The translations under genes and the position numbers were made by a program. A model generated the notes under the pieces. The model did not search any database, was not told the origin of the DNA, and saw only the letters and a list, made by a program, of their open reading frames with translations. From Octopus sinensis (lineage: Eukaryota): a stretch of 64,000 nucleotides of DNA. This document shows positions 40,927 to 42,789 of this stretch, one piece after another. The stretch lies in contig NC_043006.1 of NCBI RefSeq assembly GCF_006345805.1, positions 3,038,001 through 3,102,000 on the forward strand, read 5' to 3'. Position 1 is the stretch's first letter, and every line of letters starts with the position of its first letter.

Positions 40927-41298
40927 TATATATACATATATGCATATTTGTATATGTTTACATGTATGTATGCTTATATACGTATGTGTGTTTGTGTGTA
41001 TAAGTGTATATATATATATATATAATTAATTAATAAGGGTGAGAGAATTAGATACTAATTTAATAGTATATCTATTCAACACCAAGTGGCCTAGTGCTCC
41101 GAGAAACCTGGATTATTATAATATTTTATAATATATTATAATATTTTTACAAAATAAATATAAGAGAGTGGTCACTATATGGCTCACTCTAGCACCAGTT
41201 AATCCAAAAGGTTTCAACCACAAAAATACATGTTTCCCATGAAAGTCAGTACGATTGTTAGCTCACACGGACAGGGCAAATAAAAAATAACAAAAATA

Positions 41299-41394
41299 CA
41301 GATTATTTTGGGACAATTGTTTCGCTATTAATGAATTAAATGTAATTTTACTTACAAAAAAATCCACTTGTAGCTCCTCAGCCAAAACTATCTG
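41299..41394 (-). ncRNA. Inverted second copy of the same hammerhead ribozyme
   Basis: Reverse complement of 41925-42020. The only core difference is at the freely variable position 7 (CTGAGGA vs CTGACGA). Confidence 0.85.
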
Positions 41395-41924
41395 GATGAA
41401 ATCCACAGTAAAATTACATTTTTGGATTAACTGGTGCTAGAGTGAGCCATATAGTGACCACTCTCTTATATTTATTTTGTAAAAATATTATAATATATTA
41501 TAAAATATTATAATAATCCAGGTTTCTCGGAGCACTAGGCCACTATCTGGATGAAATCCACAGTAAAATTACATTTTTGGATTAACTGGTGCTAGAGTGA
41601 GCCATATAGTGACCACTCTCTTATATTTATTTTGTAAAAATATTATAATATATTATAAAATATTATAATAATCCAGGTTTCTCGGAGCACTAGGCCACTT
41701 GGTGTTGAATAGATATACTATTAAATTAGTATCTAATTCTCTCACCCTTATTAATTAATTATAATTATGCTACATTTATTTCTAAATGCAGTCTTTGTTT
41801 TCCGTGAAAGTTTGGCGCGCTGTTAGTTGGGGCATTTGAATTATAACGTCGGATGTAATCAATTGAACCACACGCGTATTTATCGTTATGGTAAAATCTG
41901 GCGTGTGATTGAGTGGATTTCATC

Positions 41925-42020
41925 CAGATAGTTTTGGCTGACGAGCTACAAGTGGATTTTTTTGTAAGTAAAATTACATTTAATTCATTAATAGCGAAAC
42001 AATTGTCCCAAAATAATCTG
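41925..42020 (+). ncRNA. Type I hammerhead ribozyme with extended stem II insertion
   Basis: Stem I CAGATAGTTTTGG / CCAAAATAATCTG; core CTGACGA (41938-41944); stem II GCTA...TAGC enclosing a ~43-nt insert; GAAA; stem III AC-AATT-GT (palindrome ACAATTGT); cleavage triplet GTC ending at 42007. All canonical core residues are present. Confidence 0.85.
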
Positions 42021-42789
42021 TATTTTTGTTATTTTTTATTTGCCCTGTCCGTGTGAGCTAACAATCGTACTGACTTTCATGGGAAACATGTATTTTTGTG
42101 GTTGAAACCTTTTGGATTAACTGGTGCTAGAGTGAGCCATATAGTGACCACTCTCTTATATTTATTTTATATATATATATATAAATAAATAAATAAAACA
42201 TATGCATATATACATACATATATGTACGTACATACCTCTACATGTATATATACATGCATATATATGGGTACAGGACACCAAAAAAATAACGTCGAACACA
42301 ATGAGAAACGAAAACATAAAAAAAACCGAGGAAATGGAAATTTTTTTTAAACAACGAAAAAATAGATTACAAGACATACAACACAAGGAAAATTCCCCCT
42401 CTTTAGTCGCCTTAATTTCATCTACTCCACATACATATACATATATGTGTATACATGCACATAGATATGTATGTTTATCACTCAGAAACATGCGTTCGAA
42501 AATTTAGCGTGAACCTGCTTTCACACATTTATTATATATTCATTTTTTTCTAACTCTTACACATATCCATAAAAATAAACCAACATTTCTATAATGTGTA
42601 CGCATATTTGTATCGGTGTATACATACACAGATACACAAATGTGTGCGTATGTGTGTGTGTGTGTGTATATATATACATATATATATGTATATATATAGT
42701 ATATATAATATATACATATACATATATATACATATGTATATATATATATAGATATATATATATATATATATATATATTATTATATATAT

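What the first reader, a model, noticed from the sequence alone, without database searches (positions are those of the whole stretch)
41021..42168. Non-coding 535-bp ribozyme-bearing unit in inverted plus circularly permuted tandem form (retrozyme / non-autonomous Penelope-like system)
Seen: a 386-bp inverted copy (41021-41406); a junction filler AGTAAAATTACATT identical to the HHR loop II sequence at 41967-41980; a 155-bp direct duplication; then 1.1 units of a 535-bp monomer (41581 = 42116); TA tracts on both sides; near-identical copies; no ORF. Known: inverted plus partial-tandem pLTRs are the hallmark of Penelope insertions. Inference: a young RNA parasite copied from a multimeric or circular RNA with RT template jumps, using PLE enzymes such as those whose remnants lie at 26 kb and 61 kb. 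There is only one HHR per strand, so this locus could not itself release a monomer, but read-through RNA would form long dsRNA.
Basis: partly seen in the sequence, partly recalled or inferred. Interest (0 to 1): 0.75.

Follow-up and report, generated by a model that had tools for sequence, protein, structure and literature searches.

The report
Two-armed hammerhead retrozyme insertion
This is one copy of a young, genome-wide, protein-free 535-base repeat with a hammerhead ribozyme motif; its mirror-image insertions pair two different fixed end points, which likely records a Penelope-type retrotransposon enzyme copying one small, probably circular RNA from two start sites into a single DNA break.

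Summary
Observation confirmed. The 535-bp unit has a type I hammerhead motif, with compensatory changes across subfamilies. The family-specific pattern occurs 1,526 times in the genome against 0 for the control, in arrays up to at least 17 units. It is a new member of the metazoan non-LTR retrozymes. Two-armed insertions pair end A (unit position ~53) with end B (~183) in 53 distinct loci; A/A or B/B never occurred, and 4 loci had one other or overrun end. An intact RT+GIY-YIG element in this genome leaves the same footprint. All units and both arms of a locus share one haplotype, and arms run through the cleavage site; this favours multi-lap copying of one circular RNA (inferred). Corrections: the 155-bp duplication spans the finished inversion junction, so it is later slippage or an assembly error. 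The 26- and 61-kb remnants are broken and share no homology with the unit. RNA and the partner enzyme are not shown. The scan has noted this kind repeatedly elsewhere in this genome, probably this family too.

The parts
41021..41406 (-). Minus arm, 386 bp, 5'-truncated at unit position 333; its 3' end is fixed end B (unit position 183) at 41021, running into (TA)n
41306..41387 (-). Type I hammerhead motif of the minus arm (core starts at 41381, N7 = G; predicted cleavage after 41312)
41407..41419 (+). Junction filler, a copy of unit positions 387-399 (41967-41979, in the ribozyme stem II hairpin), overlapping the plus arm start by TT; likely a short template jump of the plus-arm cDNA
   Evidence: the mechanism is inference
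41387..41541 (+). First copy of the exact 155-bp duplication (last 20 bp of the minus arm, the filler, and unit positions 530 to 116)
41542..41696 (+). Second copy of the 155-bp duplication; ACT microhomology at the breakpoint; repeats the inversion junction
41575..42168 (+). Plus arm, 594 bp (1.1 units); its 3' end is fixed end A (unit position 53) at 42168, running into (TA)n
41581..42115 (+). One 535-bp non-coding unit, predicted to be strongly folded (z = -7.3)
41932..42013 (+). Type I hammerhead motif: stem I 41932-37/42008-13, core 41938-44, stem II 41945-48/41992-95 with a long loop, GAAA 41996-99, two-pair stem III with palindromic AATT loop, predicted cleavage after 42007
41634..41763 (+). 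130-nt 'tail' between fixed end A (41633 in this unit) and fixed end B (41763); both ends fall in or at the edge of loops of short predicted hairpins

Best explanation
The locus is one insertion of a genome-wide, non-coding 535-bp repeat family with a conserved type I hammerhead motif (a non-LTR retrozyme), likely written into a TA repeat by the RT/GIY-YIG enzyme of a Penelope-like element copying one RNA molecule, probably a circle, from two fixed start sites. Inferred cycle: (1) Tandem arrays elsewhere in the genome are transcribed. (2) Paired ribozymes cut out monomers (the short palindromic stem III suggests dimer cleavage), and a host ligase closes them. (3) The PLE enzyme nicks both strands of a (TA)n target. 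(4) One DNA end primes at site A and the other at site B, 130 nt apart. (5) Each cDNA runs for part of a lap or many laps. (6) The two cDNA ends are joined in the middle by microhomology, here through a 13-nt templated filler. The 155-bp repeat arose afterwards by slippage at ACT, or is an assembly error. Shown: anatomy, copy number, end rule, haplotype sharing, motif conservation. Inferred: transcription, cleavage, circle, enzyme, twin priming.
For: Family: 187 matches at 93-100% from 40 of 753 candidates scored; 1,526 exact matches to the ribozyme pattern against 0 for the reversed control; 20 public runs from 9 studies and five organism labels hold at least half of its words. Ribozyme: the core is nearly invariant in about 140 unit copies; in 10 aligned variants 95% of cells pair and 7 of 23 pairs change on both sides, with 0/500 shuffles as high (the rows are related, so this is not a probability). 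End rule: of 57 regions, 39 are A/B (37 distinct), 1 is B with an overrun end, 4 are cut off, 13 are one-armed, 0 are A/A or B/B. Of 25 further regions picked by pattern on contig C1, 17 are A/B (16 distinct), 3 are B/other, 1 is cut off, 4 are one-armed, 0 are same-ended (counted by eye). Junctions: of 35 simple two-arm loci, 23 have 1-9 nt overlap, 8 are blunt, 4 have 1-3 added bases. TA steps lie on both sides in 59 of 65 insertions, and 4 two-armed loci show 13-27 nt target duplications. One template: at the six commonest polymorphic sites, 0 of 187 locus-by-site comparisons with two or more copies are mixed; loci differing from the window unit at 14-20 sites carry those alleles in every unit of both arms; a variant not seen in the other loci examined is in 17 of 17 units of L204; 6 locus-private variants are shared by all copies. 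33 of 35 A arms and 26 of 35 B arms cross the cleavage site, and none stops there (loci were picked for long matches, so lengths are biased up). Same footprint in an autonomous element: intact RT+GIY-YIG frames (L092) end at two sites about 26-30 nt apart in (TA)n, one short and one long in 3 of 3 inverted loci. Literature: two internal RT start sites make the PLE tail (PMC11167929); a tail at one end and an inverted 5'-truncated copy are typical of PLEs (PMC8557442); circRNA-templated tandem cDNA by PLE RT was hypothesised (PMC7229834).
Against: No autonomous partner was identified: 88 PLE-containing loci show no pLTR homology to the unit. The 130-nt tail is much longer than the 30-40 bp in PMC8557442 or the 26-30 nt of the L092 family. 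Twelve locus-private variants are carried by two or more but not all copies of a locus, and 122 more by a single copy; L208 is mixed at N7 and other sites. So arrays also change after insertion, or some templates were mixed multimers. This locus itself differs between its arms at N7. Cleavage is untested, and only 1 of 9 predicted Xenopus retrozymes cleaved in vitro (bioRxiv 10.64898/2026.07.22.740005). In the anole PLE, uncleaved RNA was the main template and the two strands did not differ in start site (PMC11167929).
Confidence: 0.78

Rival explanations
1. Same PLE-driven element, but the template is an uncleaved linear multimer transcribed from a tandem array. Arrays are lengthened and kept uniform at the DNA level (unequal exchange, conversion) or by RT re-jumping, and no circle is involved.
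For: Arms crossing the cleavage site fit an uncleaved multimer equally well. Twelve variants are shared by some but not all units. Unprocessed RNA was the dominant substrate for the anole PLE (PMC11167929). The bioRxiv paper proposes local tandem amplification.
Against: Arrays up to at least 17 units are bounded by precise A/B ends and 5' truncations, and whole haplotypes, including private variants, are shared across opposite arms. Linear copying alone can only shorten arrays, so a monomer-to-multimer step is still needed.
Confidence: 0.14
2. The unit is the pLTR of an autonomous Penelope-like element not found here, and the copies are its truncated ends.
For: The hammerhead type, (TA)n target, inversion and tail are all PLE pLTR traits (PMC8557442, PMC4209133). 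Only the best candidates were scored, so rare ORF-linked copies may be missed.
Against: Arms longer than one unit continue into another unit, never into an ORF. In 57 regions tblastn found only 2 short PLE fragments, both outside the element. There is no homology to 88 PLE-containing loci.
Confidence: 0.05
3. The complex middle of this locus is an assembly artefact. For the 155-bp duplication alone I put this at about 0.3; for the inversion as a whole it is very unlikely.
For: The duplication is 100% identical and lies at a palindrome centre. Many units show scattered indels typical of long-read consensus error.
Against: 53 distinct loci share the inverted architecture with base-precise different ends. 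Other loci have templated or multi-piece junctions (C3:46176355, C2:177100181, L183, L194).
Confidence: 0.03

Closest known systems
Metazoan non-LTR retrozymes (Cervera and de la Pena 2020, PMC7229834: passages and Discussion read; Li, Clavereau and Pollet 2026, bioRxiv 10.64898/2026.07.22.740005: parts 1-3 of 5 read, supplements closed)
   Same: Non-coding tandem units with one type I hammerhead each, low GC, no LTR, PBS or PPT, dispersed monomers to multimers, co-occurring with PLEs; within the 51-972 bp range of the 2026 survey.
   Different: The unit is longer than the 170-400 nt circles shown experimentally. Two-armed insertions with two fixed ends are not described in the parts read. No parent pLTR was found. 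RNA is not shown here.
EN+ Penelope-like elements and their pLTR/tail footprint (PMC8557442: passages; PMC11167929: parts 1-2 of 4; PMC4209133: passages)
   Same: Partial tandems, an inverted 5'-truncated copy, a tail at one end only, AT-rich or (TA)n targets, a hammerhead in the repeat, two internal RT start sites.
   Different: No ORF; the tail is 130 nt rather than 30-40; the strict one-A-one-B pairing is quantified here, whereas in vitro no strand difference was seen.
Non-autonomous Chlamys elements such as MRC1 (PMC8557442, passage)
   Same: Non-autonomous PLE derivatives with multicopy head-to-tail insertions.
   Different: Those resemble their autonomous family at the 3' end and belong to a clade without canonical hammerheads.
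L1 twin priming (recalled, from no call)
   Same: Two target ends prime on one RNA; the truncated cDNA ends join in the middle with microhomology.
   Different: In L1 the second priming site is variable and the first is the poly(A) tail; here both sites are fixed and internal.

Membership tests
Non-LTR retrozyme | Type I hammerhead motif in each unit | tested here: met
   Rfam models do not score it
Non-LTR retrozyme | Tandem units, at least two consecutive with a complete motif | tested here: met
   Met for the family (arrays of 2 to at least 17 units); this locus has only one motif per strand
Non-LTR retrozyme | Non-coding, GC under 45-50%, not framed by LTRs | tested here: met
   PBS and PPT were not searched for separately
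Non-LTR retrozyme | Dispersed, recently mobile copies | tested here: met
   Mean 0.8% substitution between loci in the first set; many contigs; target duplications in 4 two-armed loci
Non-LTR retrozyme | Self-cleavage in vitro | not testable with these tools
   needs a transcription assay
Non-LTR retrozyme | Expressed as linear and circular monomer RNA | tested here: inconclusive
   Only contigs were available, and no run is on record as RNA
Autonomous EN+ PLE | RT plus GIY-YIG ORF between pLTRs | tested here: not met
   No ORF in the unit; none attached in 57 regions
Non-autonomous PLE derivative | PLE insertion footprint (inversion, partial tandem, tail at one end, microsatellite target) | tested here: met
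Non-autonomous PLE derivative | Sequence homology to the pLTR of an autonomous family | tested here: inconclusive
   None in 88 PLE-containing loci from two protein searches; other PLE families were not sampled

The most novel reading that the evidence does not exclude
Each insertion records a dimeric Penelope-type enzyme gripping a single circular RNA at two fixed hairpin loops 130 nt apart, priming both cut DNA strands on that one circle and rolling round it for up to at least 17 laps. The strict A/B rule would be direct genomic evidence for how PLE inversions and tails form, and the unit would be a ready minimal template recognised by fold rather than by homology to its driver.
Probability: 0.4. 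Interest if true: 0.68.

Novelty: new member of a known kind. Interest (0 to 1): 0.47.

Why it matters
How animal retrozymes spread, and how Penelope-like elements make inverted ends and tails, are open questions (PMC7229834 Discussion; PMC8557442; PMC11167929). This family gives hundreds of near-identical, ORF-free insertions whose ends, junctions and haplotypes can be counted. They predict two exact RT start sites and a single, probably circular, template, which can be tested in vitro with the intact PLE frames in the same genome. The kind of element is known, and this particular copy is an unremarkable dead end apart from its duplicated junction.

Tried and rejected
(1) Rfam: no family at gathering score in the window. 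The only hits at E<=5 were two U4 snRNA matches at E 2.5. Host U4 genes and their 300-bp upstream regions aligned to the unit no better than shuffles (best 19/300), so a U4 or U4-promoter origin was rejected; U1/U2 promoters were not tested. (2) Expression: no RNA holder listed. Run X1, only guessed to be RNA, has a 565-nt contig (535+30), which fits a circle or tandem DNA equally and is not counted as evidence. (3) Read check of this locus: contigs of X15, X19, X16, X1 and X15, X19, X18, X17 did not cover the locus-specific junctions (zero depth at 41545-41574; none spanning). These may be other individuals, and the tool says a hole proves nothing. (4) A genome search with the A-B tail returned nothing because common words are skipped. 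(5) Partner search: no pLTR homology in L061-L104 and L135-L178. Short hits in L077 (40 nt, AT-rich, a different repeat) and L165 (44 nt, the ribozyme 3' half of another family) are not pLTR matches; those in L065, L085 and L145 look like chance. (6) Two templates for the two arms of this locus: rejected, because the three closest G7 loci (L189, L191, L192) carry a linked change at position 126 that the minus arm lacks. (7) Pfam on ten window ORFs gave nothing meaningful. (8) The sigma-70 scan is irrelevant to a eukaryote and at chance level. (9) The 35-bp match at 16576-16610 is AT-rich and probably chance. (10) Literature searches found no paper on cephalopod retrozymes or on a strict two-end pairing rule. 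Papers outside the library and the bioRxiv supplements were not seen and could hold this.

Full report
Observation. The described anatomy is exact. A 386-bp minus arm (41021-41406) is followed by a 13-nt filler copied from 41967-41979, an exact 155-bp direct repeat (41387-41541, 41542-41696) and a 594-bp plus arm ending at 42168, between TA tracts. The unit is 535 bp, non-coding and folds far better than shuffles (z -7.3). A descriptor search of the whole window found two type I hammerhead motifs, one per arm. Rfam does not detect them, probably because of the long stem II loop (inference).

Ribozyme motif. The plus-strand motif has stem I, the core at 41938, stem II, GAAA, a two-pair stem III with a palindromic loop, and GUC at 42005-42007. 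Core positions are almost invariant in about 140 unit copies. An alignment of 10 variants, including older subfamilies and one different family, gives 95% paired cells and 7 of 23 pairs with changes on both sides, 5 of them in stem I and its extension. The rows are related, so the shuffle result (0/500) is not a probability. A short palindromic helix III is described as needing dimers (PMC4209133, passages). Activity is untested.

Family. A search of the own genome gave 187 matches from 40 of 753 candidates scored, mostly 97-100% identical. The ribozyme pattern matches 1,526 times, against 0 for the reversed control. Arrays reach at least 17 units (L204). Twenty public runs from 9 studies and five organism labels hold half or more of its words. 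Earlier scan notes call the genome an octopus; I did not test that.

The end rule. I merged 90 loci into 57 regions. Arm 3' ends fall at unit position ~53 (A) or ~183 (B). Thirty-nine regions are two-armed with one A and one B end (2 are segmental duplicates, so 37 distinct). One has B and an end that the alignment overran, 4 are cut off by the fetched stretch, and 13 are one-armed. In 25 further regions chosen by pattern on one contig, 17 are A/B (16 distinct), 3 are B with another end, 1 is cut off and 4 are one-armed (counted by eye). No A/A or B/B locus was seen; with independent 50:50 choice, 53 of 53 has a chance of about 1e-16. The 5'-truncated ends meet in the middle: 23 of 35 simple junctions have 1-9 nt overlap, 8 are blunt and 4 have 1-3 added bases. 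TA steps flank both sides in 59 of 65 insertions, and 4 two-armed loci show 13-27 nt target duplications. Both sites lie in or at the edge of loops of short predicted hairpins. This is the geometry of twin priming (recalled from L1) with two fixed internal start sites. PMC11167929 showed that two internal RT starts produce the PLE tail, and PMC8557442 notes a tail at one end and an inverted truncated copy.

One template. At the six commonest polymorphic sites, none of 187 locus-by-site comparisons is mixed. Within-locus differences are 0.23% against 0.80% between loci. Divergent loci carry 14-20 alleles in every unit of both arms, and one variant is in 17 of 17 units. Arms run through the cleavage site (33 of 35 A arms and 26 of 35 B arms) and none stops there (the sample is biased to long arms). 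This needs a monomer-to-multimer step, most simply RT laps round a circle, as hypothesised in PMC7229834. Against this: 12 private variants are shared by some but not all copies and 122 are singletons, so later mutation, conversion, assembly error or mixed templates also occur.

Enzyme. The window remnants are PLE-like: 60751-61407 is 55% identical to an intact frame (E 3e-69), and 26041-26654 matches another family (E 7e-39). Both are broken 3' pieces. The genome holds intact 770-777 aa frames with RVT_1 and GIY-YIG matches and the Cys motif that PMC8557442 gives for Neptune/Nematis. That family ends at two sites 26-30 nt apart in (TA)n, one short and one long in 3 of 3 inverted loci. No pLTR homology to the unit was found in 88 PLE-containing loci, and no unit is attached to a PLE frame in 57 regions. 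The class of driver is therefore inferred from the footprint; the family is not named.

This locus. It is a B/A two-armed insertion with one ribozyme per strand, so it cannot release a monomer. The filler overlaps the plus arm by TT and fits a short jump of the plus-arm cDNA to a site about 130 nt upstream (inference). The 155-bp repeat contains the junction and filler twice, with ACT at both breakpoints, so it was copied after the arms were joined, or is an assembly error. Other loci have templated or multi-piece junctions. Public contigs did not cover the junctions and cannot decide. The single N7 difference between the arms is best read as a new substitution.

Comparison and novelty. It works like a non-autonomous PLE and meets every sequence-level criterion of a non-LTR retrozyme; cleavage and circular RNA are untested. 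It is not an autonomous PLE. The kind is published, including a 2026 preprint deriving animal retrozymes from PLEs. Seven searches found no paper on cephalopod retrozymes or on the strict pairing rule. The scan's own notes report the same pattern for several families in this genome; I had seen the rule before reading them, and they are not independent support.

Verdict: real, a new member of a known kind, with a countable mechanistic footprint. Interest 0.47.

Noticed in passing
window 60751-61407 (+): Broken 3' remnant of a Neptune/Nematis-type PLE, 55% identical to an intact young family in the genome.
   Followed up: yes
window 26041-26654 (+): Broken 3' remnant of a second PLE-like family related to the frame in L165.
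   Followed up: partly
L091-L100, L102, L104 (e.g. L092:2787-5823): Young PLE family with intact 730-777 aa frames, two fixed 3' ends about 26-30 nt apart in (TA)n, and a hammerhead-like motif with U4 changed to C in its 3' repeat (seen by eye). A candidate driver for retrozymes and a test enzyme.
   Followed up: partly
L165:5188-5587 and 6194-6593: A different hammerhead family with the same stem III sits two-armed just upstream of a PLE-like frame that has another hammerhead in its own 3' region. Related sequence occurs in L069, L170 and next to copies of our family in L132-L134. It could be a 5' element of that PLE or an RT switch between RNAs.
   Followed up: partly
L049:330-422, L187, L203: An older subfamily (about 77-88% identical) with the same A and B ends, a shorter tail hairpin and compensatory changes in stem I; in L049/L050 a young copy landed next to an old one.
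   Followed up: partly
G000:C2:30409763 and C2:30417927 (L132-L134): Two copies of one insertion site 8 kb apart with different central junctions (310/524 against 287/517), suggesting that the palindrome centre is edited after insertion, or an assembly duplicate.
   Followed up: no
G000:C3:46176355 (L123): Four-piece junction with 3-nt overlaps at each step, consistent with repeated template jumps.
   Followed up: no
L209-L220: Clustered host U4 snRNA genes on C4 near 104.34-104.37 Mb, repeated on a small contig.
   Followed up: no
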